Below the pieces are notes generated by a model. It saw nothing but the letters and a program-made list of their open reading frames with translations, was not told the origin of the DNA and searched no databases. Positions 2,198 to 61,842 of a stretch of 64,000 bases of DNA are shown here, piece by piece. Positions within the stretch are counted from its first letter, which is position 1. Each line of letters starts with the position of its first letter. A program made the position numbers and the translations under genes. The DNA lies in assembly GCF_963921235.1 (NCBI RefSeq), contig NC_086108.1:51400001-51464000 (forward strand). Direction: 5' to 3'. The DNA is from Mobula hypostoma. Lineage: Eukaryota.

Positions 2198-2575
2198 CTC
2201 ACACAGAACACTGGAGGAACTCAGCAGGTCAGGCAGCATCTGTGGAAGAGAGTAAACAGTTGACGTTTTGGACCATGACCCTTCTTCAGGACCGAGGAGG
2301 AAGAGGGAAGATGCCAGAACAAAGAGGTGGGGGGGGGGTGCGGAAGAGACTAGCTGGAGGGTGATAAGTGAAGCCAGGTGGGTGGAAAAGATCAAGGGCA
2401 CGAGAAGAAAGAATCTGATAAGAGAGGAGAGTGGACAATAGGAGAAAGGGAAGGGGGGGTCACAGGGGGAAGTAATAAGGAGGTGTGAAGAAGTGGGAGG
2501 TCAGAGTGGGGAACAGAAGTGGGGGGGAGTTTGTTTCCCGGAAGGAGAAATTGACACGTATGCCATTTGGTCGGA
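2198..2575 (-). mobile_element. PLE 3' end/pseudo-LTR, older subfamily
   Basis: Similar to the termini at 10202 and 58846; degenerate hammerhead motif at about 2257-2292. Confidence 0.8.
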
Positions 2576-3129
2576 GGGTCCTTCTGGTAAACAAATTCCA
2601 GCGCGCCCCGCCCCCACCCCCCCCCCCGTAGAAGGGCCTCAACTCAAAAGGTCGGCTGTACTTTTTTCCAGAGTAAGGGGTGAGGAATCTACTGAGAGTG
2701 ATGACATATTCAAAATAAACCATGGCTTTTATGAGTATTTCAAGAAGCAAGCAAACCTACATAATATGCTCCAAGCTGGGTAGAGAGCAAGACAAATAAC
2801 ATGGCAGGAGAAATTTTTCCAACAGACCTAAAATTAATCATTAAGAAAGATGGCCTTTATCCGAAAACATGCCTCTTGAGGATTCAGTGGTGCTGTTTAT
2901 AAGAAGGTATCCCCACACACAGTCAGCCTGATGGATGAGAAACCTGCATCTGGCCTCAAGACTTTAGGGTAGCTTTACCTTTCTCATGAAAGGCAATGAC
3001 GTGAGGGACTATACATTATTGGAACTTAACTTATAAGTGTACAGGATGATCTAGTACTTAAAAGAGGTGGTGCATGGAGAACCAGCCAGTATTGCACTGG
3101 AGCATGTTGAATCTGCCCGTGACAAGGCA

Positions 3130-4797
3130 GTGAATAAGAATAGAGAATAAGGTGAATGAGTTTAAAACCCCACCCTGGCAAATTGTGAAATTGGACTCAA
3201 TAAATCTGACTAATACACAAAATTGACAATGAAAGTTTCCAGATGGACATAAAAACGGAAAACTAGTTTGCTATTTATCTGCAGAGAAGTGGCCTGACGC
3301 TCGACCACACTGGCCTACATTCCTCTCCTATACCATGAACTGATTGTCTTCTGAAGCCAATAGTCCACTTACAACAATTAAAATTAAGATTCATCCCTAA
3401 TATGGCTTATGTACTGGATGAACCAAACCCTGCTCAGCCTTTCTCATTAAAACTGGGAACTCTTGCCAATGCCAAAGCTGGAAGAGTTGTCATAGGATGT
3501 TGTTAAACAGTCTGTTGTCGATGTCAAGGTGGCATTTGACAGAACGTGGCATCAAGGCATTGTGGTAAAACTGGGTCATCAAGGGGAAAACATTTCAATA
3601 CCTTGCACTAAAGGGAAATCGTTCCAATTGTTGGAAGTCAGTCATTCCAGCCCCAGGGCATCACAGCAAGAGTTCACTAAGGTGCTATCCTAAGTCCAAA
3701 TAGGCAGGGCTGTAGCTGAGGCAGCAGAGAAAGGATCAGCATGGGTGTGGACCAAGTATGTCCAGAGGGGCAGATAGTCAGACAGTGTATACATATCTTG
3801 CAAACCCTTCAGTAGTTGCATAGACACCTGAAGAGCAGACTATCTGTTGGGTGGAAGCAACCAACAACTCTGATAGAGGCAGATGCCAAGTTTTTAAGCT
3901 CACCAGTGGGAGGTGGTGCTTTAGCACTGCTGGCCCACCACTTCGAGGGAGTCTTGATCATAGCGGGCCGAGACTCCTGAAGACAGGTGGCAGATCAACT
4001 GATGGTCCCACTGGTGATAGCACAGGACAGTTAACATCTTAGTCCAAATGTACTTTGTAACTGCTAACATTACGTTTGAAGTGGGAATGCCTGACGTGGC
4101 AGCACAAAGCTCAATTCAGTTAATAACCCTTGACATTCAATGGCATTAGCATTGTGGTATTCTCATATCATCAACATCCAGGGAGCCACCATTGACCATA
4201 AATTCAACTGGACTTTCGCCATATGCCCCTTAAGGATGAGATCTATATGAAGTGGTCAGAACTGACTATGCTGCAGCATGTGACTGGCTCCCTGACATCG
4301 CAGGGAATTTCTGACTTCTGCAAAGCACAAGTCTCGAGGGTGACAGAATATCTTCCACTTTCCAGGGTAAGCGCAGCCCTAACAACTCTCCAGCCGTTCA
4401 ACACTATCCAGGACAAAGCTGCCTGCTTGATTACCATCCATACATCTCCAGTAACATTCCCTGCGTATGCCACTGGTGCAGTTACTCACTCAGCCTACGC
4501 AAGCAGTAGCTTCAAATCCATGACTGCTACCACTAATGACAAGGGTAGCAGGAGCCTGAACACACTAACGCCTGCAGATTTCCTTCCAACTCATACACCA
4601 TCCTGAACTGGGAATAGAGTATCTCTCTTTCATCATCTTTGAAACTACATTTGGCAACTCCCTCCCCATCAGCTCTGTAAATGTACCTTCACCAGCAGAA
4701 CTGCTACAGTTCGAAAAGGTGACTTGGCACCATCTTAGAAGGGGCAATTAGCAATAGGGTCTTACCAGCAACACCCAGATCCTGTAAAACCAAAAAA
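3130..4797 (+). mobile_element. Ancient CR1/L2-group LINE remnant, interrupted at about 3700-4100
   Basis: Degenerate RT stretch VDVKVAFDRTWHQG followed by a GVPQG-like motif (3516-3700); 3' region ends A-rich; related to 42520-43640. Confidence 0.6.
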
Positions 4798-6817: not shown

Positions 6818-9800
6818 AATCATAAGGTATAGGAGCAGAAGTAGGCCATTCAGCCCATCGAGTCTGCTCCACCATTCAATCATGGGCTAATCCAATTCTT
6901 TCAGTCATCTCCACTTCCCTGCCTTCTCCCCATACCCTTTGATGCCCTGGCTAATCAAGAATCTATCTAACTCTGCCTTAAATGCGCCCAATGACTTGGC
7001 CTCCACAGCCACTCATGGCACCAAATTCCACAGGTTTACCACCCTCTGACTAAAGTAATTTCTCTGCATCTCTGGTCTAAACGGACATCCTTCAATCCTG
7101 AAAGTTGCGCCCTCTTGTCCTAGACTCCTCTACCATGGGAAATAACTTTGCCATATCTAATCTGTTCAGGCCTTTTAACATTTGGAATGTTTCTATGAGA
7201 TGCCTGAACTCCAGGGAATACAGCCCAAGAGTTCCCAGATGTTCCTCATACGGTAACCCTTTGATACCTGGAATCATTCTTGTGAATCTGCTCTGAACCC
7301 TCTCCAATATCAGTATATCCTTTCTAAAATAAGGAGCCCAAAACTGCACACAATACTCCAAGTGCAGTCTCACGGATGCCTAAAAGAGCCTCAACATCAC
7401 ATCCCTGCTCTTATATTCTATACCTCTAGGAATGAATGCCAACATTGCATTTGTCTTCTGCACCACGGACTCATCCTGGAGGTTAACCTTTAGGGTATCC
7501 TGCACAAGGACTCCCAAGTCCCTTTGCATCTCTGCATTTTGAATTTTCTCCCCATCTAAATAATAGACTGCCCATTTATTTCTTCCACCAAAGTGCATGA
7601 CCATACACTTTCCAACATTGTATTTCATTTGCCACTTCTTTGCCCATCCCCCTAACTATCTAAGTCTCTCTGTTTCCTCAACACTATCCGCTTCTCCACC
7701 TATCTTTGTATCATTGGCAAATTTAGCCACAAATCCATTAATCCCATAGTCCAAATCATTGATATGCATCGTAAAAAGCATTGGTCCGAACACCCAACCT
7801 CTGTGGAACTCCACTGGTAAACGGCAGCCAGCCAGAATAGGGTCCCTTTATTCCCACTCTCTGCTTTCTGCCGATCAGCCAATGCTCCACTCCCGCTAGT
7901 AACCTCCCCATAATTCCGCAGGCTCTTATCATGCTAAGCAGCCTCATGTGAGGCACCTTGTCAAAGGCTCTCTGAAAATCCAAATACACCACATCTACTG
8001 CATCTCATTTGTCTACCCTGTTTGTAATTTCCTCAAAAAATTGCAGTAAATTAGTCAGGCAGGATCTTCCTTCCAGGAAACTGTGCTGGCTTTGGCCTAT
8101 CTTGTCATGTGCCTCCAGGTACTCTGTAATCTCATCCCTAACAATATTTTCCAACAGCTTCCCAACCATTGATTACAGGCTAACAGGTCTATAGTTTCCT
8201 TTCTGCTGCCTCCACCTTTCTTAAATAGCGGAGTAACATTGGCAATTTTCCAGTCATCCGGTACAAAGCCAGAATTTATCAATTCTTGAAAGATCATTGT
8301 TAATGCCTCTGCAATCTCTCCAGCTACTTCCTTCAGAACCCAAGGGTGCATTCCATCAGGTCCAGGAGATTTATCCACCCTCAGACCATTAAGCTTCCAG
8401 AGCACCTTCTCAGTTGTAATTTTCACTGCACATACTTCACTTTCCTGACACTCTTGAATGTCCGGTATACTGCAGATGTCTTCCACTGTGAAGACTGATG
8501 CAAAATACGCACTCAGTTCCTCGGCTATCTCTGTGTCTCTGATTACAACATCTCCAGTGTCATTTTCTATTGGTCCTATATCTACTCTCAACTCTCTTTT
8601 ACCCTTTTTATACTTAAAAAAGCTTTTAGTATCTTCTTTGATATTAGTTGCCAGCTTCCTTTTAACATTCATCTTTTCCTCCCAATGACCTTCTTAGTTT
8701 CCTTCTGCAAGTTTTTAAAAGCTTCCCAATCCTCTATCTTCCCACCAGTTGTGGCTTCCTTGTATGCCCTCGTTTTTGCTTTTACTTTGGCTCTGACTTC
8801 ACTTGTCAGCCACGGTAGTGTCCTTCTTCCATTTGAAAATTTCTTCTTATTTGGAATATGTCTGTCTTGCACTTCCTCCTTTTTCACAGAAACTCCAGCC
8901 ATTGCTGCTCTGCTGTCCTTCCTGCCAGTGTCCCTTTCCAGTCAACTTTGGCCAGTTCTCCTCTCAGGCCATTGTAATTTCCTTTATTCCAGTGAAATAC
9001 CAACCCACTGGAATTCAGCTTCTCCTTCTCAAATTTCAAAGTGAACTCGATCATATTGTGCTCACTGTTCCCCAAGGATTCTTTAACCGTGAGCGCTCTT
9101 ATCACCTCCAGATCATTGCACAACACCCAATCCAACACAACTGATCCCCTAGTGGGCTCAACAACGAGCTGATCTAAAAAGCCATCCCTTAGATTTTCTA
9201 CGAATTCTCTCTCTTGAGGTCCAGTACTGGCCTGGTTTTCCCAATTCACTTTCATGTTAAGATCCCCAATGATTATCATGACATTGCCCTTCTATCTCCT
9301 GCAGTAATTTGTAATCCACATCCTGCTGCTGTTTGGAGGCCTTTATACAACTGCCATTAGGGTCCTTTTACCTTTGCCATTTCTTAACTCAACCCATAGA
9401 GACTCTACACCTTCCAATCCTATGTCATCCCTTTCGAATGATTTAATATTATTTCTTATATACAGGGCCACATCACCCCCTCTGCCTACTCACCTATCTC
9501 TCCGATACACTGTATATCCTTGGAAGTTCAGCTCCCAATGGCAGCCATCCTTTAGCCAAGTTTCAGAGATGGCCACAACGTCATACTTGCCAATTTCAAG
9601 ATCGCCCATTTTATTTCTTATGCTGTACGCATTGAAATATAACACTTTCAGTCCAGTATTTGTTGCTTTCTATTTTACCTGCACCATGCCTCTCTTGCCC
9701 TGTAACTCATTCTACTGGCTGTGATTATGCTTCACCCCCTGCCTGTTCTTTCAATCATCTCTGTTGCACACTATCTTTGATTTATTTCTGTTTCCCCCTT

Positions 9801-10015
9801 CCTCAGCTTGATCACTCCAGTTCCAATCTCCCTACCAAATTAGTTTAAACCCTCCTAAACACTCTATTAAACCTGCCTGCTCAGATATTGGACCCCTTTG
9901 GGTTCAGGTGTAACCCATCTTTTTTGTACAGGTCGTACCTCCCGCAGGAGAGGCCCCAGTGATCCAGGAACCCAAAGCCCTGCCCCCTACACCAATCTCT
10001 CAGCCACGCATTAAT
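6818..10015 (-). mobile_element. CR1 LINE, about 3.2 kb, decayed ORF2 (APE endonuclease + RT)
   Basis: Collinear minus-strand ORFs with IIGDLN..VNW, KSPGPDG, DWKIANVTPLFKKG, YLDFQRAFDKVPH, SGVPQ, HLEYCVQFWAP. Confidence 0.95.
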
Positions 10016-10201
10016 ATGCCTGATCATACTATTCATGCTATGATAGGCAGGAAAATATTGCTATCTCATCCAGCTCACCCAAAACATCTGCAACTTGTGG
10101 TCTATCACACCATTGAGAAGAAGAAAAGATTTGGATGGGGGCATCTGGAAAATTCATCTCCTACTTCAAAATAACTCAACAACTGAACACTATATGAAGC
10201 T

Positions 10202-11310
10202 TAAACACGAGGAAATCTGCAGATGCTGGAATTTCAAGCAACACACATAAAAGTTGCTGGTGAACGCAGCAGGCCAGGCAGCATCTATAGGAAAAGGTAC
10301 AGTTGACGTTTTGGGCCGAGACCCTTCGTCAGGACTAACTGAAAGAAGAGCTAGTAAGAGATTTGAAATTGGGAGAGGGAGGGGGAGATCCGAAATGATA
10401 GGAGAAGACAGGAGGGGGGAGGATGGAGCCAAGAGCTGGACAGTTGATTGGCAAAAGGGATATGAGAGGATCATGGGACAGGAGGCCTAGGGAGAAAGAA
10501 AAGGGGAAGGGGGGGGGAAATCCAGAGGATGGGCAAGGAGTATAGTGAGAGGGACAGAGGGAGAAAAAGGAGAGAGAGAGAAAAAGAATGTGTGTATATA
10601 AATAAATAATGGATGGGGTACGAGGGGGAGGTGGGCATTAGCGGAAGTTTGAGAAGTCAATGTTCATGCCATCAGGCTACCCAGATGGAATGTAAGGTAT
10701 TGTTCCTCCAACCTGAGTGTGGCTTCATCTTTACAGTAGAGGAGGCCGTGGATAGACATATCAGAATGGGAATGGGATGTGGAATTAAAATGTGTGGCCA
10801 CTGGGAGATCCTGCTTTCTCTGGCGGACAGAGCATAGGTGTTCAGCGAAATGATCTCTCAGTCTGCGTCCGGTCTTGCCAGTATATAGAAGGCCACATCA
10901 GGAGCACTGGACGCAGTATATCACCCCAGCCGACTCACAGGTGAAGGACTGTCTGGGGCCCTGAATGGTAACGAGGAAAGAAGTGTAAGGGCATGTGTAG
11001 CACTTGTTCCACTTACAAGGATAAGTGCCAGGAGGGAGATCAGTGGGGAGGGATGGGGGGGACGAATGGACAAGGGAGTTGTGTGGGGAGCGATCCCTGC
11101 GGAAAGCAGAGAGAGGGGGGAGGGAAAGATGTGCCTAATGGTGGGATCCTGTTGGAGGAGTTGGAAGTTACGGAGAATTATATGTTGGACCCGGAGGCTG
11201 GTGGGGTGGTAGGTGAGGACAAGGGGAGCCCTATTCCTAGCGGGGTGGCAGGAGGATGGAGTGAGAGCAGATGTGCGTGAAATGGGGCAGATGAGTTTGA
11301 GAGCAGAGTT
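10202..11310 (-). mobile_element. Neptune-type PLE, 5'-truncated
   Basis: Highly similar to the 3' part of 58846-61276. Perfect 12 bp TSD ctatatgaagct (10190-10201 / 11311-11322). Confidence 0.95.
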
Positions 11311-12517: not shown

Positions 12518-14108
12518 GTAAAGACATGGGTAAAAAGACAAAGTTAGATACATACATACCTGCACTATAGCTCACAGATGCACACACACACATACGCACT
12601 TACATATAGAAAATCACATACACAAGAACAAAAATGTGCTGTACCTTATACAAAAACAAATATGCACACACAAGCACTTACTTAAGACATTTTAAAGAAA
12701 TACATCTTAATCAAAAGATGCTGTTTGATAACTGATGGATTTTAAACAGGTTATTCATTTTGAAGTGACTCAACTTTCTACCTTAGTCAACCAGGAATAT
12801 ATTTCTCCTAACATGTAACTTTATATTGCATTCTTGGAACGGCGTGACCCAAGCACATAGTCTGACACAGAGAATTAAAAATGTACAAAACACTGGCAAA
12901 TTCATTATGTATTCCACATGATTCACTAACCAAAGACACATTTTTATTCCATACAGTATAATCGCATAAAGAAATGAGAGATATTGGACTGGCCGCTGCA
13001 GTGTTCCACTAATTTTCATCACCTTTGCTTCTAAGACTAAAATAATGTTGTTCACTTAGTGTGCCATAAACATGTAAATAAATCACCAGTTTTCAGTCAT
13101 ACTTTTATAAAATCCCTGTCTGGTAGCATCTTACTAATTTGGAGAAGTCTGGTCATGCTTCACCAAGCCAAAACAAAGAAAATTATGGAAAGATGGATTA
13201 TATGAACGAAGTGTGGATGGATAATGAACCATTGTACTGAGATACCATACATGCAATTCCTCGGCAGCCCTATTGCGCTGATACCACAATGGAGTCCATT
13301 TTATTTGTTGTGAATGGAGGGATAAAAATGTGGCAGAGGGGAAGACAAAGCTCATTAAAGGGGAAATCAACTGGTAATTTATCATTTTCAAGAATACTTT
13401 ACTTGCCATTTTTTTCTCATCACCTCCAGCCAACCCCACAGCAAAGAAGACCCAAAACAACGCTCGTCAAATTTTTGCAACTATTAGACATTAGATATTT
13501 TGCAGCGAATAGATTAAACTCATATTGCTAAATATTGAATATTGTCTGGCAAACATATGACGAAGCTTACCCAGTTGGGAAACTAAACCCATAAGGTCAA
13601 TAACCCAATTGTATCTTAGATCTGTCATAAATTGGAGTGCATTGTTGCTGAGTGTGGAAAATGCCTTCCCCACATCATGTTAAATTATTAGACGGTCCAC
13701 AAAGTGTAAAACATCACACCAGGGAGCACAGCTCACTCAGTGATTCACAAATTAAGTCAATTATTTTGAGATGGCTTTCATTTAAACAAATAGGACTGGT
13801 ATTGTTAAATCATTCTTCATTTCTAAAAATGCTATCTAAATTGAATTTAATATCTCCCACTGACTTACTCATAGTAGTTGGTTACAGATGTCCCATCATT
13901 TTTTCTGTAAATATAAATCCGATGTGAATCTTTCAACAGTAGGAATTTATTAGAAGTCAGGAAGGAATCAGAGAATTTTGTAACGAAGTGTAATGGATTA
14001 AATTCAGTTACTTTATATTACAAACAGAATAGTCATGAAAATCACCCTTTCGGGGTTCCTGAAACCATTAACTGGATTCTGCACATAGCTGAGTTTTATG
14101 GGTTCCAA

Positions 14109-14263
14109 CACACATCAAAGTTCCAACACATCAGGACTGACGAAGGGCCTCGGCCTGAAACGTCGACTGCACCTCTTCCTACAGATGCTGCCTGGCCTGC
14201 TGCGTTCACCAGCAACTTTGATGTGTGTTGCTTGAATTTCCAGCATCTGCAGAATTCCTGTTG
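14109..14263 (+). mobile_element. Solo PLE terminal repeat with hammerhead core and short inverted stubs
   Basis: CTGACGA (14137-14143), GAAA (14157-14160), CGTC. 14 bp TSD tttatgggttccaa (14095-14108 / 14264-14277). Confidence 0.9.
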
Positions 14264-14620
14264 TTTATGGGTTCCAATTTCAGTTCTTGTTCTGCACTAA
14301 GTAAGCTGACTTTAAATAAGAATTCCTAGAGTTACTGAACCACATTTTTTTTTAAATGATGTTGCCACTGCTTGCTGTTGTGGACATTCCAAGATGGAAC
14401 TGAGCACCATTGGAAAATCTTACCTTTAATTGGTGAAGAAAGCTTTGGTCTCAGTAGCCATTGATGTCAGTGAACAGGATAGACCTGACTTCCATCATTA
14501 CCAATGGGAAAGAAACAGTCCTGGAAGACTGTTTACTACTTATTCCCATGCACTTACTTCTACCTGTAAAATATGAAACATCAAGTTTAGAGAGCTACAA
14601 GACGAACTTGAAAAGGGTTT

Positions 14621-14853
14621 AAAAACGCAAACACGAGGAATTCTGCAGATGCTGGAAATTCAAGCAACACACATCAAGGTTGCTGGTGAACGCAACAGGC
14701 CAGGCAGCATCTCTAGGAAGAGGTACAGTCGACGTTTTGGGCCAAGACCCTTCGTCAGGACTAACTGAAGGAAGAGCTAGTAAGACTGTACCTCTTCCTA
14801 GAGCTGCTGCCTGGCCTGCTGTGTTCACAAGCAACTTTGATGTGTGTTGCTTA
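14621..14853. mobile_element. PLE insertion made of two inverted terminal-repeat arms
   Basis: 14662-14730 is the reverse complement of 14784-14852 (a few mismatches); flanked by aaaagggttt (14611-14620 / 14854-14863). Confidence 0.9.
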
Positions 14854-15031
14854 AAAAGGGTTTGACTGCTTTTAAAGTTGAACCTTTTTAGTGTATTGTT
14901 GAGATGCAGGAGCATTGTTTTCCTAAACTGAGCCTTGCTCCATCAAATGTACAAAATGGTTAGTTTACTTATTTAGCCTTCAATGTCTGCCTACAGTCAT
15001 TCCTTGAGAATTAATGATTAGAACTTCATCA

Positions 15032-15134
15032 AAAACACAAGAAGTATCTCTTTCCAAAACATCAATTGTTCAATCATCTTCATAGATGCTGCCTGACCTG
15101 TTGAGCTCCTCCAGCATTTTGTGCGTGTTGCTCA
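15032..15134 (+). mobile_element. Degenerate PLE terminal fragment
   Basis: catagatgctgcctgacctgttgagctcctccagcattttgtg; 12 bp TSD agaacttcatca (15020-15031 / 15135-15146). Confidence 0.75.
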
Positions 15135-19829: not shown

Positions 19830-22800
19830 TGAACCATGGTGACTTGTTGTGGGCTGCTTATAAAACTTCTAAATATATGTCTTTTGAATTACTCTCATTG
19901 CGATCTGCAGCCTGTAATTTCCTTTGAGGCAACGCACTTTTGAACTGCCTTAAAGAAGGACTCGGTGGAATTAACCCCCAAGCATGCAGGTACAGCATCT
20001 TTAAGTAGACAAAGGTACATCACCATGGCATAAGAGAGGGGGAGGGGAGGACTCCAAGCTAGGCTGAGATTCAGAGGAATGAAACTCCATCCAACCAGCA
20101 TCTTGTTAGCAAATGTACAGTTGTTGGAGAACATGACTGAGGACATAAGCGCAAGATTGGTCTATCGGAGAGAAATGGAGAATTGTTGTGTTCTGCTTTT
20201 CGTGGAGACATGGCTCACTCTGAACACACCGGCTGCATCAGTAAGACCTGAGGGCTTCTCAATACACAGTTTGGACTGAGATGCTGATTCAGAGAAGGCA
20301 AAAGATGAGTGTGTTTGTTTCATGATAAACCCTTTGTGGTGCTTGGATGTGGCAGTTTTGTTGTACTCTCGTTCCCCCGACCTGGAACATCCAATGATTA
20401 AGTGCCAACCCTTCCACTTACAAAGAGAATTCTCCTCCATGACCCAGACCACAGCTTACGAACGGCCAAAAGACGACATTAATCAGACACTTGAGATATT
20501 GAATGCTGCCATCACCGATCAAGAAATAGCCAACCCCAATGCATTTCAAATCAATGTCAGGGACTTCAATAAGGTTTGTTTGAAGAAATTTCTTCACTAT
20601 TATCATTAACGGATAATATGCAGCACCAGGGGCCCCAACACGCTCAACCACTGCTATACTGTGATGAGGAATCCCTTCTGTTCCATGCCTAGACCGCATT
20701 TCAGGAAATCTGATTACTTAGCTGTCCTCCTACCTGCATACAGGCAGAGGCTAAAGAGCAAGGCTCCAGAGATAAGGACAAAAAAGAGGTGGCCGGGGGA
20801 GGCAGAGGAATGGCTACGGGATTGCTTCGAGTCAGTGAAATGGGCCATGTTCAAGGACTCTTTCGAGGATCTGAATGAACACACCAGGGGTTTTCAGTCT
20901 TCATAAAAACAGTCGTCGAAGAGTGAATCATTCAGATTCCTCCTCAACCAGAAGCCCAGGATGAATTATGAAATTGGCAATCTGCAGATCAATGGCATTC
21001 AGTTCTGGCAACCAAGTCAGATACAAGAGGTCCAGGTACAATCTCCAGAAAGCCATATCACATGCAAAGTGGCAATTCCAGACCAAACGTGAATTACTGA
21101 AAGATAATGAAAGCTGTGGAAGGGCTTGAATGCTATTACAAAGTGAAGCCAAGCGACATAGGTGAAAACCAGGCTTTGCTCCCAAATGAACCCAGTGCCT
21201 TCTGTGCTCACTTTGACTCAGAACAAGGGCATCACAAACTCCCACAGTCTCTGATGACCCTGTGATTTCAGTCTCTAAGGCTGATGTGAGAACACACCTC
21301 AGGAGGGGGAACACACAGAAAGCATCCAGCCCAGATGGGGTATGTGGTTGAGTACTGAAGACCTATGCTGATCAACTGACTGGAGTATTCACCAACATTT
21401 TAACCTTTTGCTTCAGCAGTCTGAGGTATCCACCTGCTTCAAGCAGGCTTCAGTTATACTGTTGCCCAAGAAGAACTTGGCAACCTGCGTCAATGACTAT
21501 CATCCAGTACCACTTAATGAAGTCTTTTGAGAAGCTGGATTTGAAACATATCAACTCCTGCCTAAAAAGTAATTTGGATCCATTCCAATTTGCCTACCAT
21601 CACAATAGGTCAAGATCAGATGCCATTTCAATGGTTCGTTGTTGAACCCTGGGACGTCTGGACAGCAAGGATGCATAAATCAGGATGCTCTTTATCGACT
21701 ATAGCTCAGCATTCAAAACATCGTCGGCTCAAAACTAATCAATAAGCTTCAAGATGTTGGCCTCAATATCTCCTTGAGAAATTGGATCCTTGCTTTCCTC
21801 ACTTGCAGACCCCAGTCAGTTCAGATTGGCAATATCTCCTCCACAATCTCCATCAGCACAGGTGCACCACGAGGTGTGCTTATCTCCCTGCTCTATTCAC
21901 ACTATACTTGTGACTGGGAGGCTAAGCACGGCTCCAACACCGTATTGAAGTTTACCGATGACACCATGTCAAAGGTGAGAACAAATCAGAATTTAGGAGG
22001 GAGATTGAAAATCTGGCTAAGTGGTGCCATAACAACATTTCTCACTTAATGTCAGCAAGACCAATGAGCTGAGCATTGACTTCAGGAGGAGGAAACCAGA
22101 GGTCCATGAGCCAGTCCTCATTGGAGGATCAGAGGTGGAGAGGGTCAACAGCTGTAAATTCCTCGGTGTTATTAATTTGGAGGACCTGTCCTGGGCCCAG
22201 CACGCAAGTGCAATTACAAAGAAAGCACGGCAGAGCCTCTGCTTCCTTAGGAGGTTGCAGAGATTTGGCATGACATCTAAAACTTTGACTAACTTCTATA
22301 GATATGTAGTGGAGAGTAGATCGGCTGGCTGCATCACAGCCTGGTATGGAAACACCAAAGCCTTTGAATGGGAAATCTTTCAAAAGGTAACAGATATAGC
22401 CCAGCTCATCACGGGTAAAGCTCTCCCACCATTGAGCACATTTATACAGGGTGCTGTTGCAGGAAAGCAGCATTTATCATCGAGGTCCCTCACCACTCAA
22501 GCCATGCTCCCTTTTCACTGCTGCCATCAGGAAGAAGGTACAGGAGCCTCAGGACCCATGTCACCAGGTTCAGGAACAGTTGTTACCTCTCAACCATCAG
22601 GCTCTTGAACCAGCGGGCACAACGTCACTCAGTGTCACTCACCCCAACACTGAATTGTTCCCACAACCTATGAACTCACTTTCAAGGACTTTTCATCTCA
22701 TGTTCTTGGTATTTATTGCTTACTTATCTATTATTATTATTTCTTTCTTGTCTTTTGTATTTGCACAGTTTGTTGTCTTTTGCACATTGATTGTTTGTCC
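19830..22800 (+). mobile_element. Rex1/Babar-type LINE, about 3 kb, decayed
   Basis: ILLANVQLLEN..CCVLLFVETWL (endonuclease), LDPFQFAY, MLFIDYSSAF, KFTDD, FLGVINLEDLSW..KKARQSLCFLRRL. Confidence 0.88.
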
Positions 22801-23622
22801 ATCCTATTTGGATTTCATCATGGCTTTGCCACCTTCCGATGTGGCCACAGTGATCATGACCATGGTGAACCAGTCCTCCATGGCAACCCACTTCATTACT
22901 CTTCCCATATTTCTGTTGGCCATTGAGACGGTGGGTCTGGTTCTCCAACATGTACTCCACCTCCACGGCTTCACCCAGGACCTTGTATCAGACTGAAGCC
23001 CACAATTCATCTCCCACATCAGGAAAGCCTTCTGCCCCCTTCTCCACACCTCAGTGAGTTTCTCCTCTGACTACCATTCGCAGACCAAAGGTCAATCAAA
23101 AAGAACCAATTAACAAATGGAGAAGTTTCTGTGATGCTTCACTTCCTCTAACCTTTCCACATGGAAAAGGTATCTACTCTGAGCCGAACTGTCCCACAAT
23201 CCAAATATCTCCTCTGCCACAAGTATGGCACCACTTGAAGTGCCTCATGGCTACCAACCCCTGTTGTTCCCCACAGAGGAACCAACAGTGGAAGTCCTGT
23301 CCGCCATGGCCCTGATTCACCGCAACTGGAATGCAGTGGGCCATCCTAGCTGCCAACCGCACTGGCTGCCTCTAGACCAATCACTGGCCGTGCACAGTCA
23401 GACTGCTCCAGCCTGGGGATTATGCCCCGTGCAACAACTCCCGCAAGCTCTCGCCCCAGATCACTGATACCTTTAAGATTACTAATTGCATTATCCAGTC
23501 ACTTACCGTCTCCATCTGCTACTGTCTGTTAGGATACATCCACCTTTCATATGTCCTGCCTCAAGCTTTTTGTCCATGGGCTACTCAGCCAGCCTAGGCC
23601 TGCTGCACCTCAGATGGTGGAA

Positions 23623-24190
23623 GCAACACACATCAAAGTTGCTGGTGAACGCAACAGGCCAGGCAGCATTTCTAGGAAGAGGCGCAGTCGACGTTTCAGG
23701 CTGAGACCCTTCGTCAGGACTAACTGAAGGAAGAGTGAGTAAGGGATTTGAAAGTGGGAGGGGGAGGGAGAGATCCAAAATGATAGGAGAAGACAGGAGG
23801 GGAAGGGATGGAGCCAAGAGCTGGACAGGTGATTGGCAAAAGGGATACGAGAGGATCATGGGACAGGAGGCCCAGGGAGAAAGATACGGGGGAGGGGGGG
23901 GAAACCCAGAGGATGGGCAAGGGGTATAGTGAGAGAAAAAGGAGAGAGAGGAAAAGAATGTGTGTATATAAGTAACTAACGGGTGGGGTACGAGGGGGAG
24001 GTGGGGCATTAGCGGAAGTTTGAGAAGTCAATGTTCATGCCATCAGGTTGGAGGCTACCCAGATGGAATATAAGGTGTTGTTTCTCCAACCTGAGTGTGC
24101 TTCATCTTTACAGTAGAGGAGGCCGTGGATAGACATATCAGAATGGGAATGGGACATGGAATTACCGTTTGTAAAATGTGTGGCCATTTT
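23623..24190 (-). mobile_element. Neptune-type PLE, 5'-truncated, inside the Gypsy element
   Basis: 9 bp TSD atggtggaa (23614-23622 / 24191-24199). Confidence 0.93.
23685..23721 (-). ncRNA. Minimal type I hammerhead ribozyme motif
   Basis: Minus strand AGUC-CUGACGA-AGGGUCUCAGCCU-GAAA-CGUC-GACUG; core intact. Confidence 0.75.
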
Positions 24191-26056: not shown

Positions 26057-26197
26057 TGACAGCAGAGTAGCAATGGCGTGAGTTTCTGGGAAAAATGAGG
26101 AAAGTGCAGGATATATGTATTCCAAAAATGAAGAAATACTCAAATGGCAAAACAATATAAGTAAAGACTACTATTAAAGCACCTGAAAATCCTCACT
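26057..26197. repeat. Locally templated inverted insertion with 11 bp flanking duplication
   Basis: 26057-26160 is the reverse complement of 27047-27150 (3 mismatches); 26162-26192 is the exact reverse complement of 26954-26984. Flanked by tatgaatctta (26046-26056 / 26198-26208). Confidence 0.92.
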
Positions 26198-28078
26198 TAT
26201 GAATCTTACCACTTTGCTTGGACTGCATTGTTAAAAAAAAGTTTAGGTAGAAAGAAGTACTGAAGCATTTCATTCTGAAGAGTTCTTTGCTCAGATAAAA
26301 TGATGAAATTTAAAACATAAGGTTCAGACTAGTGTACCTCTACAAATATCAGTTGTTTCATGTGTCTTAATCCAATGATAGAGCTATTTAAAACAATGGA
26401 AGCAAAATTACCTCTGGTGATATTACCACAGTAATTCTTACCACATGCATCAAATTTCTCTCCCCCAATTTAATAGAAGCACTAATCCATTTATTGTAAC
26501 CTGGTTAATGGCTTCATTAAAGTAGAGGAGAGGGGAATTTAAGATAAATGTGTTCAATATCCATAAACGACATGAATTTCTGCTCTTTGATAACAACAGT
26601 AATTGGATTTGAATACAAGACATTTTTACTCAAAAATATTTACTCTATACATTAGGTTGGTGGAATTTATTGTATTATTTTTCAGTGTAAATTCACAGCA
26701 GACAGTATTTTAGTTCTTCTCCTTTCTGCTGTCCAAAACTATCTCAAAGTGCTGTAGGTCTTCTTAGGCACAATCATACCATATGTGAACAATCACGTAA
26801 ACTGCAGCACAATATTACCCTGAAGCTAAGTGGCAAAATGCATTACATACTAGATGAAAAATCAACCACCATTATGCAAATTGAGTGGTGCGGTGCTTTC
26901 AAACACAATTCTTTGAGCTCAAGGATCAAGATATGAAGTCGGCTGCGTCTCCCGGATTTTCAGGTGCTTTAATAGTAGTCTTTATTTCCACTTGTGACAG
27001 TCATCTCTATGGTACAATCCTCTCTGACTTCCCTTGTCAGCCACGGTTATATTATTTTGCCATTTGAGTATTCCTTCATTTTTGGAATACATATATCCTG
27101 CACTTTCCTCATTTTTCCCAGAAACTCAAGCCATTGCTACTCTGCTGTCACTCCTACAAGCATTTCCTTCCAAGTTACTTTGGCCACCATAATTTCCTTG
27201 ACTCCACTGAAATATTGCTACAACAGAATTTACTTTCTCCCTATCAAATTTCAAGTTGTACTCAATCATATTGTGGTCACTGCCTCCTAAAGGTTCTTTC
27301 ACCTTAAGCTCCCTAACCACCTCCAGTTCATTACGTAACACCCAATCCAGTATAGATGATCTCCTTGTAGGCTCAATGATGAACTGCTCTAAAAAGCCAT
27401 CTCGTAGGCATTCAGCAAACTCACTCCCTTGAGATCCATTACCAACCTGAATTTCCCAATCGACCTTCATGTTGGAATCTCCCGTGACTATAATAACATT
27501 GCCCTTTTGACACGCCTTTCTATACCCATTGTAATCTGTGGTCCACATTTCAGCTACTGTTGGAAGGCCTGTATATAACTGTCATTAGGGTCCTTATACC
27601 CTTGCAGTTTCCTAACTCAGCTCACAAGGATTCAACATAAACTGGGCTGAGAAGTGGCAGATGGAGTTCAATGCAGATAAGTGTGAGGTGCTTCACTTTG
27701 GTAGGTCAAATATGATGGCAGAATATATAATATTAATGGTAAGACTCCTGACAGTGTGAAGGATCAGAGGGATCTTGGGGTCCATGTCCATAGGACACTC
27801 AAAGCTGCAGGTTGACTGTGTGATTAAGAAGGCATACAGTGCATTGGCCTTCATCAACCGTGGGATTGAGTTCAAAAGCTGAGAGGTAATGTTACAGCTA
27901 TATAGGATCCTGGTCAGACCTCACTTAGAGTGCTGTGCTCAGTTCTGGTTACCTCACTACAGGAAGGACTTGGAAACCATAGAAAGAGTGCAAAGGAGGT
28001 TTACAATGATGTTCAAGCAACATACATCAAAGTTGCTGGTGAACGCAGCAGGCCAAGCAGCATCTATAGGAAGAGGCG

Positions 28079-28115
28079 CAGTCGACGTTTCAGGCCGAGA
28101 CCCTTCGTCAGGACT
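28079..28115 (-). ncRNA. Minimal type I hammerhead ribozyme motif
   Basis: Minus strand AGUC-CUGACGA-AGGGUCUCGGCCU-GAAA-CGUC-GACUG. Stem I is AGUC/GACU, stem II AGG/CCU; predicted cut between 28084 and 28083. Confidence 0.78.
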
Positions 28116-28410
28116 AACTGAAGGAAGAGTGAGTAAGGGATTTGAAAGCTGGAGGGGGAGGGGGAGATGCAAAATGATAGGAGAAGACAGGAGGGAGAGG
28201 GATAGAGCCGAGAGCTGGACAGGTGATAGGCAAAAGGGGATACGAGAGGATCATGGGACAGGAGGCCTAGGGAGAAAGACGGGGGGGGGGGGTGACCCAG
28301 AGGATGGGCAAGAGGTATATTCAGAGGGACAGAGGGAGAAAAAGGAGAGTGAGAGAAAGAATGTGTGCATAAAAATGAGTAACAGCTGGGGTACGAGGGG
28401 GAGGTGGGGC

Positions 28411-29484
28411 CTAGCGGAAGTTAGAGAAGTCAATGTTCATGCCATCAGGTTGGAGGCTACCCAGACGGAATATAAGGTGTTGTTCCTCCAACCTGAGTGT
28501 GGCTTCATCTTTACAGTAGAGGAGGCCGTGGATAGACATGTCAGAATGGGAATGGGATGTGGAATTAAAATGTGTGGCCACTGGGAGATCCTGCTTTCTC
28601 TGGCGGACAGAGCGTAGATGTTCAGCAAAGCGGTCTCCCAGTCTGCGTCGGGTCTCACCAATATATAAAAGGCCACATCGGGAGCACCGGACGCAGTATA
28701 TCACCCCAGTCGACTCACAGGTGAAGTGATGCCTCACCTGGAAGGACTGTTTGGGGCCCTGAATGGTGGTAAGGGAGGAAGTGTAAGGGCATGTGTAGCA
28801 CTTGTTCCGCTTACACGGATAAGTGCCAGGAGGGAGATCAGTGGGGAGGGATGGGGGGGACGAATGGACAAGGGAGTTGTGTAGGGAGCGATCCCTGCGG
28901 AATGCAGAGAGAGGGGGGGAGGGAAAGATGTGCTTAGTTGTGGGATCCCGTTGGAGGTGGCGGAAGTTACGGAGAATAATATGTTGGACCCGGAGGCTGG
29001 TGGGGTGGTAGGTGAGGACCAGGGGAACCCTATTCCTAGTGGGGTGGTGGGAGGATGGAGTGAGAGCAGATGTACGTGAAATGGAGGAGATGCGTTTAAG
29101 AGCAGAGTTGATAGTGGAGGAAGGGAAGCCCCTTTCTTTAAAAAATGAAGACATCTCCCTCGTCCTAGAATGAAAAGCCTCATCCTGAGAGCAGATGCGG
29201 CGGAGACGGAGGAATTGCGAGAAGGGGATGGCGTTTTTGCAAGAGACAGGGTGAGAAGAGGAATAGTCCAGATAGCTGTGAGAGTCAGTAGGCTTATAGT
29301 AGATATCAGTGGATAAGCTGTCTCCAGAGACAGAGACAGAAAGATCTAGAAAGGGGAGGGAGGTGTTGGAAATAGACCAGGTAAACTTGAGGGCAGGGTG
29401 AAAGTTGGAGGCAAAGTTAATAAAGTCAACGAGTTCTGCATGTGTGCAGGAAGCAGCGCCAATGCAGTCGTCGATATAGCGAAC
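28411..29484 (-). pseudogene. PLE ORF C-terminal half: RT (YIDD onward), Cys linker and GIY-YIG endonuclease
   Basis: RYIDD, LPFLDL, YYKPTD, CKRNKCYTC, VIYCVRCSRCGLLYIGETRRRLGDRFAEH, EEQHLI..GMN; no stops but lacks the N-terminus. Confidence 0.93.
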
Positions 29485-29928
29485 ACAATGATGTTGCCTG
29501 GATTGGGGAGCATGCCTTAAGAGAATTGGTTGAGTGAACTTGGCCGTTTCTCCTTGTAGCGACGTATGATGAGAGGTGACCTGATAGAGATGTATAAGAT
29601 GATGAGAGGCATTGATCTTGTGGATAGTCCGAGGCTTTTTTCCGATGGCTGAAATGGCTAGCTGAAGAGGACACAGTTTTAAGGTGCTTGGAAGTAGGTA
29701 CCGAGGGGATGTCAGGGGTAAGTTTTTTATGAAGAGAGTGGTGAGTGCATGGAATGGGCTGCTGGCGACAGTGGTGGAGGTGGATACAATAGTGCCACAT
29801 CTTTCTACTGATTTGATGCCATTCTTTACCAGCAGAGCCATGGAACCCCCTCTGCTTACCTTCCTATCCCTCTGATACAATGCGTAACCTTGGACATTCA
29901 GCTCCCAACTACAACCATTCTGCAGCCA

Positions 29929-32003: not shown

Positions 32004-35000
32004 CTTCCACCCCCTTTAGATTAAAACCATAAATGTAACAAAACATTAAATTTCCTTTAACAAACCATATTCAAATAATCATGCTTTAACAATAATAGTC
32101 CAGAACTAACTTCACTATATTAAAGATTCAGTCTTTTGGGTGGGGCTGTTTCTTTCAGGATAGCACCTCTGGACCTGTGGAGTGGCATTAGGTTTGACAG
32201 GTGTCTTGTCATAGACAACTTTCTCTGTTACAGGTGCGGTGTTGCTGTTAGTGATATGATCATCACTGAGAGGTCAGTCTGGTGGATGCAATGTGTCCCT
32301 CTTGTTGGATGCTGTCGACTCAGGTGTGTTCTTCGACTGAGCATCTGGTATCTGATCCACATGACGTCTTCATGTATGATCACCAACATCCACTGTGTAT
32401 ATCAGTGGTCCGGTTCTTGTAGATATCCTATCAGGTGTCCTCTTGTCTTCTTGCTAATTACATGCTAGGACTCCCTGTCCAACTTCAAAGCCCCTTGCTG
32501 ATTTAATTGGCAACTGGCTGAATTGTTTATTGTGTACTTCCCTCTGTAGATCTGGTTTCGGGAGGTCTACGTGAGATCTCATATTCCTGCTCATGAACAG
32601 GTGTTTGATTTGTCATCGCATGAACCGAGTTCCGATACACAAAAAGGAAGTTGTCCACTTCATGCTGTAGAGAAGAGTCCTCCTTGATCATCACTTTAAT
32701 GTACTTCTTGAAGATCTGCACAAACCTTGCGGGTAACCCATTGCTTGCTGGGTGGTGAGGTGCTGACTTGAAACGTTTGATGCCATTTTTCTTTGTGAAT
32801 AGTCTGAACTCTTCTGACGTATATTGTGGTCTATTGTTACTCACAATTTGTCCAGGTAAGCCATTTCTGGAGAAGATAGTCCTCAGAGAAGAAACAGTCT
32901 TTTCTGAGGTGGTTGACTTCATTTGGATGAGCTCTGGCCACTTCGAATGAGCATGCACAGCAATCAGAAACTTGGAGTCCATGAATGGCCCAGCAAAAGT
33001 CAATATGCACTCTTTGCCATGATGAGGATGGCCACTCCCATGGGCGTAATAATGCGTATTGGGGTGCATTTAGAACCCTGTGGCATCCTGAACAGCTTTT
33101 AGTCAAGCCCTCAATCTATCTATCTACTCCTGGCTGTCACATGTAGCTCCAGGCAAGATTCTTCATCTTGTTTGTACCCAGGTGTCCTTCATGTAGATTT
33201 TCTAACACTCTGGAGCACAGTTTAGAGGGAACCACATCATGAGATCTACACATTACGGCTCTTTGACATACAGACAGTTGGTTTCGTCTCACTGAGAACT
33301 CTAGAAACATAGGATTACCATGAGCTGGCCATCCATGCATGGTGATATCACAGACTTTTGACAATGTTGAGTTATTCCTTGTTTCTCTTTGTATTTCAGA
33401 ATTTGTTACTAGCAACTGGTCCATCAATGGTGTGTGGAACACCTCTGCTGGGTCACAGAATGAAGACTTCTCTTCTTCAATTGCCAACAGTAGAAGATGT
33501 GACAAGCCATTAGCATTGCCGGGTTGTTTTGTACCCTTGAACGCTATGTCATAAGAGTGGGCTCCTAGGAAAAGTGCCCAACATTGTAACTGGGTAGCAG
33601 TTATCACTGGGATTGAAAATGGGCACAAGGGGATGGTGGTCTGCCACTAGAGTAAACTTTTGTCTGTAGAGGTAGTGGTGGAACTTCTTTACTCCCCGTA
33701 TTAGACTAAGGGCCTCTCAGTCGAACTGTGCATAGTTGCATTCTGGGGGCATCAGTTGGACTGGTCAGTCAAATGCAATTGGACGTTCACATGCATCTTT
33801 CATTGTAGGTGACAAAACAGCATCAATGCCATAAGGGGACACAGCGCACATCAGTCTGATGAGCGGTGATGGTCGCAGTTCATCTGATGTTAGTAGTCTC
33901 TTTGATTCTTTAAATGCTCTTTCACATCTTTCTGAGCATTCCCATTTTGTTCCTGTCTGCAGCAGTGTGTTCAATAGGCGCAGCACTGTAGCAATGTTTG
34001 GGAGCAACCAGTTGTCATGGAAGAAAAGCCCAAGTATGATCTGAGTGCTATATTTTCTGGTTTGGGTGCCTATAGCACTGCTTCACTCCTCTCTTGTGAC
34101 TTGTGTAAGCCATGCTTGTCAATGACATGTCCACAAGATGAGATTTCATTCTTGAAAAACTCACTTTTCTCTCTCTTTGCACGCAGACGATACTCACTCA
34201 ACCTGATAAGCACATTACTGAGATTCTGGAGATGCTCTTCATCATTCTTGCCAGTCATGATGATGTCATCAAAGTAACATAGTGTTCCTGGGATATGTTG
34301 GAGCAATTGGTCCATTGCTCTTTGCCAAATTGTTGGAGCTGATGCGACGCCAAAGACAAGACAATTATACCGGAACAGTCCCTTGTCAATGTTGATTATG
34401 AGGAACTTCCTGCTTGACTCCTTGATCTCCATTTGCAGTGACAAGTCAATCTTTGAAAACCTCTCCCTACCTGCCAAAGATACAAAAATGTCTTCTATTC
34501 GTGGCAGGGGCTACTACACAGTACGCAGCACAGGGTAGACGCTCACTTTGAAGTCCCCCGCATATGTGAACGGCTGCGACCTTTCCTTTCTTGATCACCA
34601 GGACAATGGGTGTGGCCCAATCACTCCATTCAACCTTGGAGAGAAAGCCAGACACCTCCAAGCTCTGAAGGATATCATCCACTTCAGGACATAGTGCGTA
34701 AGGCACTGACATCGCTTTATAGAATCTTGGTGTTGCTGCTTCATCCAGTTCAATTCTGGCCTTTTGAGTTTACTGATACCCTTCTCAAACACCTTGTCAT
34801 TAACATTGAGCACTGTGACAGTCCCTGGTTAGTGCTACCATTTGGGCTGCAGTTGCCTGTCGATGGCACATTGAGAGCTTCATTTGAGTGCCAGTCAGTT
34901 GGATTTTTCCCAACCACTCACTTCCAAAAAATGCTGACCCTCCACTTTTCAACACATAAAGCTCTAACTGCTATGTTTTCCCTCCATACATCACTTTTAC

Positions 35001-36243: not shown

Positions 36244-36420
36244 TGTTGTGTCTGTTCAACTAAATGTCAATCAAATAAAAAGCACACAGGCAGAGGTGAG
36301 GTTAACTGGTGTGTTCACTTTGCAGAGAGAGAACTACAGATCAATGCACATGGATAAGCTATCAGGCAATAAATAGTGCTAAGGGGAGTCATTGTGCTTT
36401 TAAAAAATCCATACATTACA
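36244..36420 (-). repeat. 5' LTR of the Mag-clade element
   Basis: tgttgt...ccatacattaca, adjacent to the PBS-like motif. Confidence 0.92.
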
Positions 36421-44119: not shown

Positions 44120-44440
44120 AGCTGGATGGAGAGGTTGCTTCCTATATTGGGGGACCAGAGGGCACAGCCTCAAAATGGAACATGGACGCAGAGGAATTTC
44201 TTTCACCAGAGAGTGGAGAATGTGTGTCATTCATTACCACAGATGGCTGTGGAGGCCAAGGCATTGGATATATTTAAAATGGAGGTTGATAGATGCTTCA
44301 TTAGTCAGGGTGTTAAAGGTTACAGGGAGAAGGCAGGAGAATAGGGTTGAAAGAGATAATAAGTCAGCCATAATGGAATGGTGGAATAAACTTGATGGGC
44401 CAAATGGTCTAACTCTGCTCCCATGTCTTTTATGGTCTCA
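44120..44440 (+). mobile_element. CR1 3' fragment
   Basis: RNFFHQRVENVCHSLPQMAVEAKALDIFK plus 3' UTR. Confidence 0.88.
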
Positions 44441-44525
44441 TGGTCTAACTGTGTGCAGTTCTAGTCAGCACAATTTTGGAGGAATATGACTGTTGTTCTA
44501 TAGGCAGAGGGCAGACTCGATTGCA

Positions 44526-58640: not shown

Positions 58641-58845
58641 TAAGGTGAAAATGTGAAAAACAAAAATAAATTAACCAATTTACCAATTTAAAACTATTTA
58701 CACTAGTCAGACATCATTATTAAAATAATCAAACATATGGGCTGATCACAAAATTAAAAGTTACAATGTTATAAAGGTAGAGATTATATGTAAGCATTTA
58801 AAGATCCAAACAGGCTAAAAACTAAAAAAAACAAATAGAGTAACT

Positions 58846-61276: not shown

Positions 61277-61842
61277 AGAGTAACTGTTGTGATAGATTGA
61301 TTGATCCTAGTAAAACTCACATAACTTCTCCATTTGATGTATTTGATAAGCAAGAACGTTAGTTTCAACATAAGTAAGAAAGGTGGTCGCAATACAATAA
61401 CAGTGCTCTGAGCAAACTAGATCCCTGGGATAAAGGTATCTTTGTGTTACGGATATCTGTTAAGTAAGCTGTTTTCTAAGAAAGCAACATCCAACCTCCC
61501 AGTAACATGTGGGTTGCATCTAGTGGCTCTTAAAAGTGGTGTGAAATTTTGTCCCCCTCCCCATAAAAAACTGTCTTTGACTTCATGGGGAACAAGGCCT
61601 CAGTCCTAGACTTAAGGTTGATATATCTAACTCATATTCTGTATACAATAACGGAATTTCATTTCAATTACATAAATGTAGAATAGCAACCACGTCAACA
61701 TAGTAACATGGGGTTAGAAGAAGAAAAGTAGTTTGAGTTAATCTCCTTAATTGCAATGAGGAGGTGACAATTGATAGGAGGCCTTAACATGTTTTTGATG
61801 AAGTTCAAAATAATTGAGTGCTAAATAAACTCAAAACATTGG

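What the first reader, a model, noticed from the sequence alone, without database searches (positions are those of the whole stretch)
14611..14863. Inverted PLE arm starts at the predicted hammerhead cleavage site
Seen: a TSD-flanked insertion with a minus-strand terminus (about 14626-14785) fused to a plus-strand 69 bp arm starting gactgtacc at 14784. That is the first base after the GUC triplet (GAAACGUC/GACUG). The junction has a 2 nt GA microhomology, so the position is ambiguous by 2 nt. Established: PLEs often carry an inverted 5'-truncated pseudo-LTR. Inference: a DNA footprint of a ribozyme-cut RNA 5' end used as RT template, which would be in vivo evidence of cleavage. This rests on one case.
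Basis: partly seen in the sequence, partly recalled or inferred. Interest (0 to 1): 0.7.

Follow-up and report, generated by a model that had tools for sequence, protein, structure and literature searches.

The report
Two-armed Penelope insertion, weak ribozyme footprint
This is one of about 14,000 back-to-back mini-copies of a Penelope-type jumping gene in this genome; its short arm does start at the predicted ribozyme cut, but most arms start 17-36 bases further upstream, at a likely RNA start, and the cut site is only mildly favoured, so it does not show that the ribozyme cuts in living cells.

Summary
The structure is real: target-site duplication, a minus-strand arm with tail, and a 69-bp plus arm starting at the base after GUC, with a 2-nt overlap. 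It is ordinary here: about 14,000 such insertions occur genome-wide.

I ran the proposed histogram on 199 clean junctions not selected for breakpoint. 221 of 398 arm starts lie 17-36 nt upstream of the cut, from an initiator-like TCAGTT; only 9 of 398 lie at the cut. That is 5x the neighbouring positions and about 2.5x a microhomology-aware null (P about 0.01).

Against a cleavage footprint: about half of cut-site arms use 3-4 nt microhomology, including the ribozyme's own stem I. Nearby palindromes and a hairpin are equally hot or hotter. Non-inverted truncations show no clear peak (1-3 of 26), and 0 of 7 full-length 5' ends start there.

Best reading: both target strands likely primed reverse transcription at the element's two internal start sites, and the copies were joined by microhomology near the RNA start. 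A small cleaved-RNA class remains possible (about 30%). Earlier scan notes describe the same pattern in this and other genomes.

The parts
14611..14620 (+). Left copy of target-site duplication (AAAAGGGTTT; 14607-14620 if the 14-nt form is taken)
   Evidence: (D7)
14621..14785 (-). Long arm: end of 3' UTR, hammerhead motif, pseudo-LTR terminus and tail of a Penelope-like element (ref 2998 to tail end)
   Evidence: 91.9% over 161 nt to the 2.5-kb ORF-bearing copy at 58842-61298
14763..14768 (-). TCAGTT, initiator-like (A = 14766, ref 3017); also the CAG of a polypyrimidine-AG 3' splice-site-like motif; upstream edge of the genome-wide pile-up of arm starts
   Evidence: sequence; histogram; Inr and splice-site consensus recalled, function untested
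14727..14762 (-). Minimal type-I hammerhead layout: stem I 14762-14759 with 14730-14727, CUGACGA 14758-14752, stem II, GAAA box 14738-14735 (here AAAA), CGUC 14734-14731; predicted cut between 14731 and 14730
   Evidence: sequence; conservation table; layout from PMC4209133; no Rfam hit
14784..14785 (.). 2-nt GA overlap shared by the two arms (head-to-head junction)
14784..14852 (+). Short inverted arm, from the first base after GUC (ref 3053) to the inner outer-end site (ref about 3121); no tail
14854..14863 (+). Right copy of target-site duplication (14850-14863 in the 14-nt form, its first bases shared with the arm end)

Best explanation
This is a non-coding, two-armed insertion of a Penelope-like retrotransposon, likely made when both cut target strands primed reverse transcription on the element's RNA and the two DNA copies were then likely joined at short shared sequence, with this arm's start at the ribozyme cut likely being one of several sequence-favoured join points rather than a record of cleavage. 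Shown: one arm ends at about ref 3117-3121 and the other at about 3153-3159; both carry the same subfamily alleles; most start at 3017-3036; joins carry 0-4 nt overlaps or short insertions; a 13-14 nt duplication flanks the unit. Inferred: (1) the element's endonuclease nicks both strands about 14 nt apart; (2) each 3' end primes at one of two internal start sites lying 100-140 nt from the transcript's 5' end; (3) both cDNAs usually run off that 5' end, probably the A of TCAGTT (ref 3017); (4) they are trimmed and joined by microhomology-mediated end joining, which favours self-complementary spots, among them stem I (AGTC/GACT), whose 3' strand begins exactly at the cut. The long arm here runs to ref 2998, past both the ribozyme and the likely start, so its template was uncut at that ribozyme and began further upstream.
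For: Abundance: 12,184 head-to-head pairs with symmetric anchors; 14,128 matches with a tail anchor, gaps 30-400. Two outer ends: short arm at 3116-3121 in 128 of 199, long arm at 3153-3159 in 167 of 199, matching two internal RT start sites and extension of both strands in vitro (PMC11167929). Same template: alleles shared at 93-95% of sites against 39-76% if paired at random; 2 of 136 pairs differ at 2 or more of 4 sites against 84 expected. Start pile-up: 221 of 398 in 3017-3036, 11 per position, against 1.6 just upstream. Joins: 77 of 199 with overlap, 27 blunt, 95 with inserted bases. Cut-site arms: 17 of 28 scored loci have 3 nt or more of overlap, 9 of them stem I, as the null predicts (0.48-0.51). 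Rival hot spots: 3057 12 and 3050 10 against 3053 2 of 190 ends; 3048 14 and 3050 15 against 3053 6-9 of 92 (by eye; that pattern's filter excludes stem-I joins). Non-inverted ends flat: 1-3 of 26 at the cut, mean 1.5 (by eye). Full-length 5' ends: 0 of 7 at the cut. In Anolis the ribozyme was dispensable for insertion in vitro and no RNA-seq reads ended at its site (PMC11167929).
Against: A residual excess at the cut survives the null: 9 observed against 3.3-3.7 expected (P 0.007-0.014); 5 against 1.5 among joins with 2 nt overlap or less (P 0.02; two of the five share an identical junction). Genome counts 330: 205: 82 for arms ending at 3053, 3045 and 3060 give 1.6 raw, about 1.9 after removing false matches by eye, against 1.1-1.3 predicted. 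This copy's own join has only 2 nt of overlap and does not involve stem I. The RNA start at 3017 is inferred from DNA only. The census covers the first 51.7 Mb of one contig and requires exact anchors, so it favours young copies.
Confidence: 0.62

Rival explanations
1. The same twin-priming mechanism, but a small share (about 1% of arms) were copied from RNA that the hammerhead had cut, so the cDNA ran off at 3053. This copy would be one: short arm primed near the cut 5' end, long arm primed at the downstream tail of the same or a sister RNA.
For: Residual 1.5-2.5x excess at 3053; 7 of the 9 census cases are short arms; clean examples without inverted partner or overlap exist (L143; C1:156851760); the catalytic boxes are 91-100% conserved across copies; the Anolis ribozyme cuts in vitro when the element's protein is present (PMC11167929).
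Against: No step at 3053 among non-inverted ends (12 in the 9 positions upstream, 14 in the 8 from the cut on) or among pairs with two short arms (2 of 190). Partners reaching upstream of 3017 are no commoner for 3053 arms (about 13 of 97) than for 3045 arms (about 13 of 85; by eye). Other positions are as hot or hotter. 0 of 7 full-length 5' ends start there.
Confidence: 0.27
2. Fold-back or self-priming: one cDNA (or an antisense RNA, as proposed in PMC3846280) folds on a stem such as stem I and copies itself, so the second arm starts at the 3' strand of a hairpin.
For: Hairpin-closing joins are frequent: stem I about 36 of 100 cut-site rows (by eye); the 3057/3074 GCA/TGC pair 8-10 of 98, which closes a predicted RNA hairpin. 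Shared alleles between arms fit.
Against: The short arm reaches 10 nt or more further upstream than the long arm in 81 of 199, and the long arm further in 52; the long arm also has a tail the short arm lacks, so in those 81 neither arm can be a copy of the other. The 3057/3074 pair occurs in both polarities (5 and 3 exact). This copy's join is not a hairpin closure.
Confidence: 0.08

Closest known systems
Canonical endonuclease-positive Penelope-like elements: partial tandem, inverted 5'-truncated copy, 30-40 bp tail at one end (PMC8557442 passages; PMC3846280 passages)
   Same: RT followed by GIY-YIG, partial-tandem full-length copies, head-to-head inverted arm, tail on one arm only, target-site duplication, hammerhead in the pseudo-LTR.
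   Different: Here the unit is reduced to two arms of about 70-165 nt and occurs about 14,000 times, which allows breakpoint statistics; I found none for this structure in the searches.
Poseidon element of Anolis carolinensis, PAc (PMC11167929, parts 1-3 of 4 read)
   Same: Two adjacent internal RT start sites bounding the tail, both strands cut and extended in vitro, hammerhead just upstream.
   Different: In PAc the ORF starts inside the hammerhead; here the first ATG of the long frame lies about 36 nt after the tail, and a CxxxxCxxC linker suggests the Neptune side. That paper does not treat inverted arms or their 5' breakpoints in the parts read.
Minimal type-I hammerheads of metazoan PLEs (PMC4209133, parts 1-2 of 4 read)
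   Same: 4-bp stem I, palindromic ACGU in place of helix III; a splice-acceptor-like motif abuts the 5' end of helix I, as the intron end does in Drosophila virilis.
   Different: Short stem II; 77% of aligned copies have T at ref 3044, changing the closing pair. Activity untested.
LINE-1 twin priming (recalled, no call)
   Same: Second target strand primes a second cDNA; inverted piece; microhomology at the join.
   Different: In L1 the two cDNAs cover adjacent parts of the RNA; here they cover the same stretch and start at two fixed internal sites.
R2 retrotransposon, whose HDV-like ribozyme cut defines the 5' junction (PMC3774820, start of abstract in search listing only)
   Different: In Drosophila R2 the cut is the 5' junction; here only about 2% of arms and 0 of 7 full-length 5' ends start at the cut.

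Membership tests
Endonuclease-positive Penelope-like element | Single ORF with RT and C-terminal GIY-YIG | tested here: met
   792-aa frame of family copy L210 hits RVT_1 (E 3.9e-5) then GIY-YIG (E 8e-4), both below Pfam's curated cut-offs; GIY-YIG in window 28414-29928; no Pfam hit on a 447-aa fragment. The insertion itself is non-coding.
Endonuclease-positive Penelope-like element | Pseudo-LTR by partial tandem upstream of the ORF | tested here: met
   7 of 8 fetched ORF 5' regions continue through the tail into a terminal repeat; 4 extend over 760 nt upstream.
Endonuclease-positive Penelope-like element | Inverted 5'-truncated copy and a 30-40 bp tail at one end | tested here: met
   outer ends about 3119 and about 3155.
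Endonuclease-positive Penelope-like element | Target-site duplication | tested here: met
   No empty allele was available.
Neptune/Nematis clades | Zn-finger-like motif between RT and endonuclease | tested here: inconclusive
   CKRNKCYTC is seen; criterion from PMC8557442; no tree was built.
Minimal type-I hammerhead | Core boxes CUGAnGA and GAAA, stems I and II, palindromic 15.2-16.2, NUH triplet | tested here: met
   Family profile; this copy's long arm has G12 changed to A, and the short arm holds only the 3' strand of stem I. The lowest-energy folds do not adopt the hammerhead.
Minimal type-I hammerhead | Self-cleavage at the predicted site | not testable with these tools
   Only assembled contigs were offered; they cannot show RNA ends.
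Ribozyme-defined insertion end (R2-like) | Element 5' ends coincide with the cut as the rule | tested here: not met
   9 of 398 arm starts, 0 of 7 full-length 5' ends, 1-3 of 26 non-inverted ends.

The most novel reading that the evidence does not exclude
The thousands of two-armed stubs record two RNA 5' ends in a vertebrate germ line: a major one at the transcription start just upstream of the hammerhead and a minor one (about 1% of arms) at the hammerhead cut. They would then give DNA-level evidence that PLE hammerheads cut in vivo, and that the long-unexplained inverted structures of PLEs come from twin priming at the two internal start sites.
Probability: 0.3. Interest if true: 0.62.

Novelty: new member of a known kind. 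Interest (0 to 1): 0.36.

Why it matters
Whether PLE hammerheads cut in vivo is open: PMC4209133 says in vivo evidence is absent, and PMC11167929 found no RNA ends at the site. How the inverted arms form is also described as undefined (PMC8557442). This copy does not settle the first question. The genome-wide pattern bears more on the second: two fixed outer ends, shared alleles, and either arm reaching further upstream favour twin priming over self-priming, and the pile-up predicts the transcription start to within a few bases. It also shows a trap: the 3' strand of stem I starts exactly at a hammerhead's cut, so microhomology joins mimic a cleavage footprint.

Tried and rejected
Rfam scan: no match. 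RNA evidence: no RNA holder listed on record; contigs of four guessed-RNA runs hold the family but gave no start or end sites; uninformative either way. The first genome search had 8 or so of 29 hits starting at the cut, but it was ranked by likeness to this very junction and was not counted; partners of arms ending at 3060 start at 3053 in 10 of 82 rows, which looked like two arms from one cut RNA; rejected as specific, because 3072 is raised about as much relative to its overall share and arm lengths correlate generally (Spearman 0.25). Spliced template as cause of the 3017-3023 edge: no shared upstream exon is seen at those junctions. The predicted hairpin at 3007-3039 as cause of the pile-up: joins closing it are only 2 of 199. 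The automatic 'solo' class (68 arms, 1 at the cut) still held misclassified inverted arms and was used only qualitatively. PDB sequence search: no match. An empty allele of this site could not be sought (no relatives held).

Full report
Coordinates. 'ref' numbers count along the reverse complement of window 58842-62000, a natural ORF-bearing copy. The hammerhead C3 is ref 3025, the C of GUC is 3052 and the first base after the predicted cut is 3053. In the finding's long arm, window = 14785 - (ref - 2998).

The observation. The duplication, the minus arm, the 69-bp plus arm and the 2-nt overlap are as described. The family is a Penelope-like element: RT then GIY-YIG (both below Pfam's curated cut-offs), partial tandems upstream of the ORF in 7 of 8 fetched 5' regions, and the tail running on into the ORF. 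So the tail is not an RNA end but an internal site. This agrees with the internal initiation shown for the Anolis element (PMC11167929, parts 1-3 of 4 read; supplements not read, and its Fig. S2 may bear on RNA ends). An inverted 5'-truncated copy with a tail at one end is the published norm (PMC8557442 passages; PMC3846280 passages).

How common. Exact-anchor patterns give 12,184 head-to-head pairs, and 3,136 + 6,389 + 2,835 + 1,768 matches with a tail anchor for gaps of 30-400; the reversed-pattern controls gave 0. I took the listed matches in the first 51.7 Mb of contig C1. The script scored 224 junctions, dropped 2 duplicates, 9 beyond the census limit and 14 with over 15 unexplained bases, leaving 199.

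What the census shows. Short arms end at 3116-3121 in 128 of 199 and long arms at 3153-3159 in 167 of 199. Duplications are 13-14 nt in 100 of 199. The two arms share subfamily alleles at 93-95% of diagnostic sites (random pairing 39-76%), and only 2 of 136 pairs differ at two or more of four sites (84 expected). Arm starts: 69 of 398 upstream of 3017, 221 in 3017-3036, 39 in 3037-3052, 9 at 3053, 27 in 3054-3073, 33 beyond. The edge is sharp: 0, 2, 3, 6, 15 at 3014-3018. It falls on TCAGTT, an initiator-like word (consensus recalled). An internal TATA-less promoter with Inr is reported for Drosophila Penelope (PMC2377424 passages). The same bases also look like a 3' splice site, and the D. 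virilis intron ends at helix I (PMC4209133), but no shared upstream exon appears at these junctions. 77 joins have overlaps, 27 are blunt and 95 carry inserted bases, some visibly copied from nearby sequence, as expected of microhomology-mediated end joining (established knowledge, no call).

The test of the cut site: for. 9 of 398 against 1.8 per neighbouring position (P 1e-4). A null with a smooth end distribution and fitted microhomology weights expects 3.3-3.7 (P 0.007-0.014). Among joins with 2 nt overlap or less it is 5 against 1.5 (P 0.02), two of the five being identical junctions. Genome-wide, arms ending at 3053, 3045 and 3060 under two-base mismatch filters number 330, 205 and 82. 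About 15 of the first 100 rows at 3045 are false by eye, so 3053:3045 is 1.6 raw and about 1.9 corrected, against 1.1-1.3 predicted.

The test of the cut site: against. 17 of 28 scored cut-site loci are joins with 3-4 nt overlap: 9 by stem I (AGTC/GACT), 7 by GTC at 3035, 1 further upstream; in the first 100 rows about 36 are stem I (by eye). Removing joins of 3 nt or more from both sets leaves roughly 155 against 135 (my estimate from by-eye shares). Among 98 short-gap junctions (98 of the 100 listed; 95 clean), 3053 has 2 of 190 ends, 3050 has 10 and 3057 has 12, mostly one hairpin-closing pair. In the first 100 of 1,194 rows of a pattern catching any end in 3044-3060 (read by eye; 8 false rows dropped; its filter excludes stem-I joins), 3048 has 14, 3050 has 15 and 3053 has 6 plus 3 ambiguous, mean 5.4. 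Of these rows 26 join unrelated genomic DNA, where self-complementarity cannot act: 1-3 at 3053, mean 1.5, with no step across the cut. That sample would reveal a peak of 5 or more, not a twofold one. None of 7 full-length 5' ends starts at the cut (3000, 3026, 3083 with an inverted arm from 3029, and 4 long tandems).

Mechanism. The simplest account is twin priming: nicks on both strands, one priming at each internal start site, both cDNAs running to the RNA's 5' end about 100-140 nt away, then trimming and microhomology joining. Arms that pass upstream of 3017 (69 of 398, including this long arm) would come from the downstream repeat of a longer RNA. Self-priming (PMC3846280) cannot be the rule, because the tail-less arm reaches at least 10 nt further upstream in 81 of 199 (this count is somewhat raised because the long-arm anchor allows shorter long arms). 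All steps at RNA level are inferred; the sequencing runs offered were contigs only.

Literature and earlier notes. Searches listed no paper with breakpoint statistics for PLE inverted arms or twin priming in PLEs; most listed papers were seen as titles and abstract starts only, and the library lacks most subscription journals. bioRxiv 10.64898/2026.07.22.740005 (parts 1-2 of 5 read) concerns tandem retrozymes and did not bear on the junction in those parts. Earlier scan notes, read after my census, describe the same two-class pattern here and in other genomes; they are unchecked and not counted as support.

Verdict. A real but ordinary copy. The cut site is mildly over-used, much of that is explained by the ribozyme's own complementarity, and a small cleaved class cannot be excluded (about 30%).

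Noticed in passing
window 14095-14277: A second two-armed insertion of the same family about 330 bp away: 14-nt duplication TTTATGGGTTCCAA, a 17-nt inverted arm (14106-14122), a 14-nt insert that looks copied from both arms, and a long arm starting at hammerhead C3 (14137-14266).
   Followed up: partly
window 10200-11310, 23621-24186, 28012-29928, 58842-61298 (all minus strand): Longer 5'-truncated copies of the same element; two end at the tail and two at the inner site; 28411-29928 holds an open 505-aa frame with GIY-YIG.
   Followed up: partly
window 2217-2305 and 15054-15132: Older related pseudo-LTR fragments (74-82% alike) with a similar hammerhead layout; such families would give an independent test of the cut-site peak.
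   Followed up: no
L388, L390, L415, L416, L422, L441, L442, L212 (ref 3057/3074): One junction closing the hairpin GCA-CCTCTTCCTAGAGA-TGC recurs in 8-10 of 98 short-gap insertions, in both polarities; by extrapolation about 200 genome-wide, more than the stem-I join.
   Followed up: partly
L162 and L167 (C1:28958622, C1:30295849): Identical junction (3022, one extra base, 3053) with different flanks; in both, the arm starting at the cut differs from its partner at subfamily sites, which is otherwise rare. Could be a second RNA molecule or a copied junction.
   Followed up: partly
window 14763-14783, minus strand (ref 3000-3022): Branch-point-like word, pyrimidine tract and CAG/TAG directly before hammerhead stem I, recalling the D. 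virilis intron end; splicing not shown.
   Followed up: partly
L451 (C2:47176038-47177558): A full-length 5' end where the inverted arm is the tailed one (3029-3155) and the direct arm starts at 3083 and runs on into the ORF.
   Followed up: no
window 32527-33646, minus strand: Two frames that resemble a broken Gypsy-type integrase region (motifs recalled, not searched).
   Followed up: no
window 7329-10015, 21768-22717, 26057-27640, 36244-39037, 44191-45511, 52962-53489: Many decayed LINE-like RT fragments (self-BLAST 66-75% alike; frames); family not determined.
   Followed up: no
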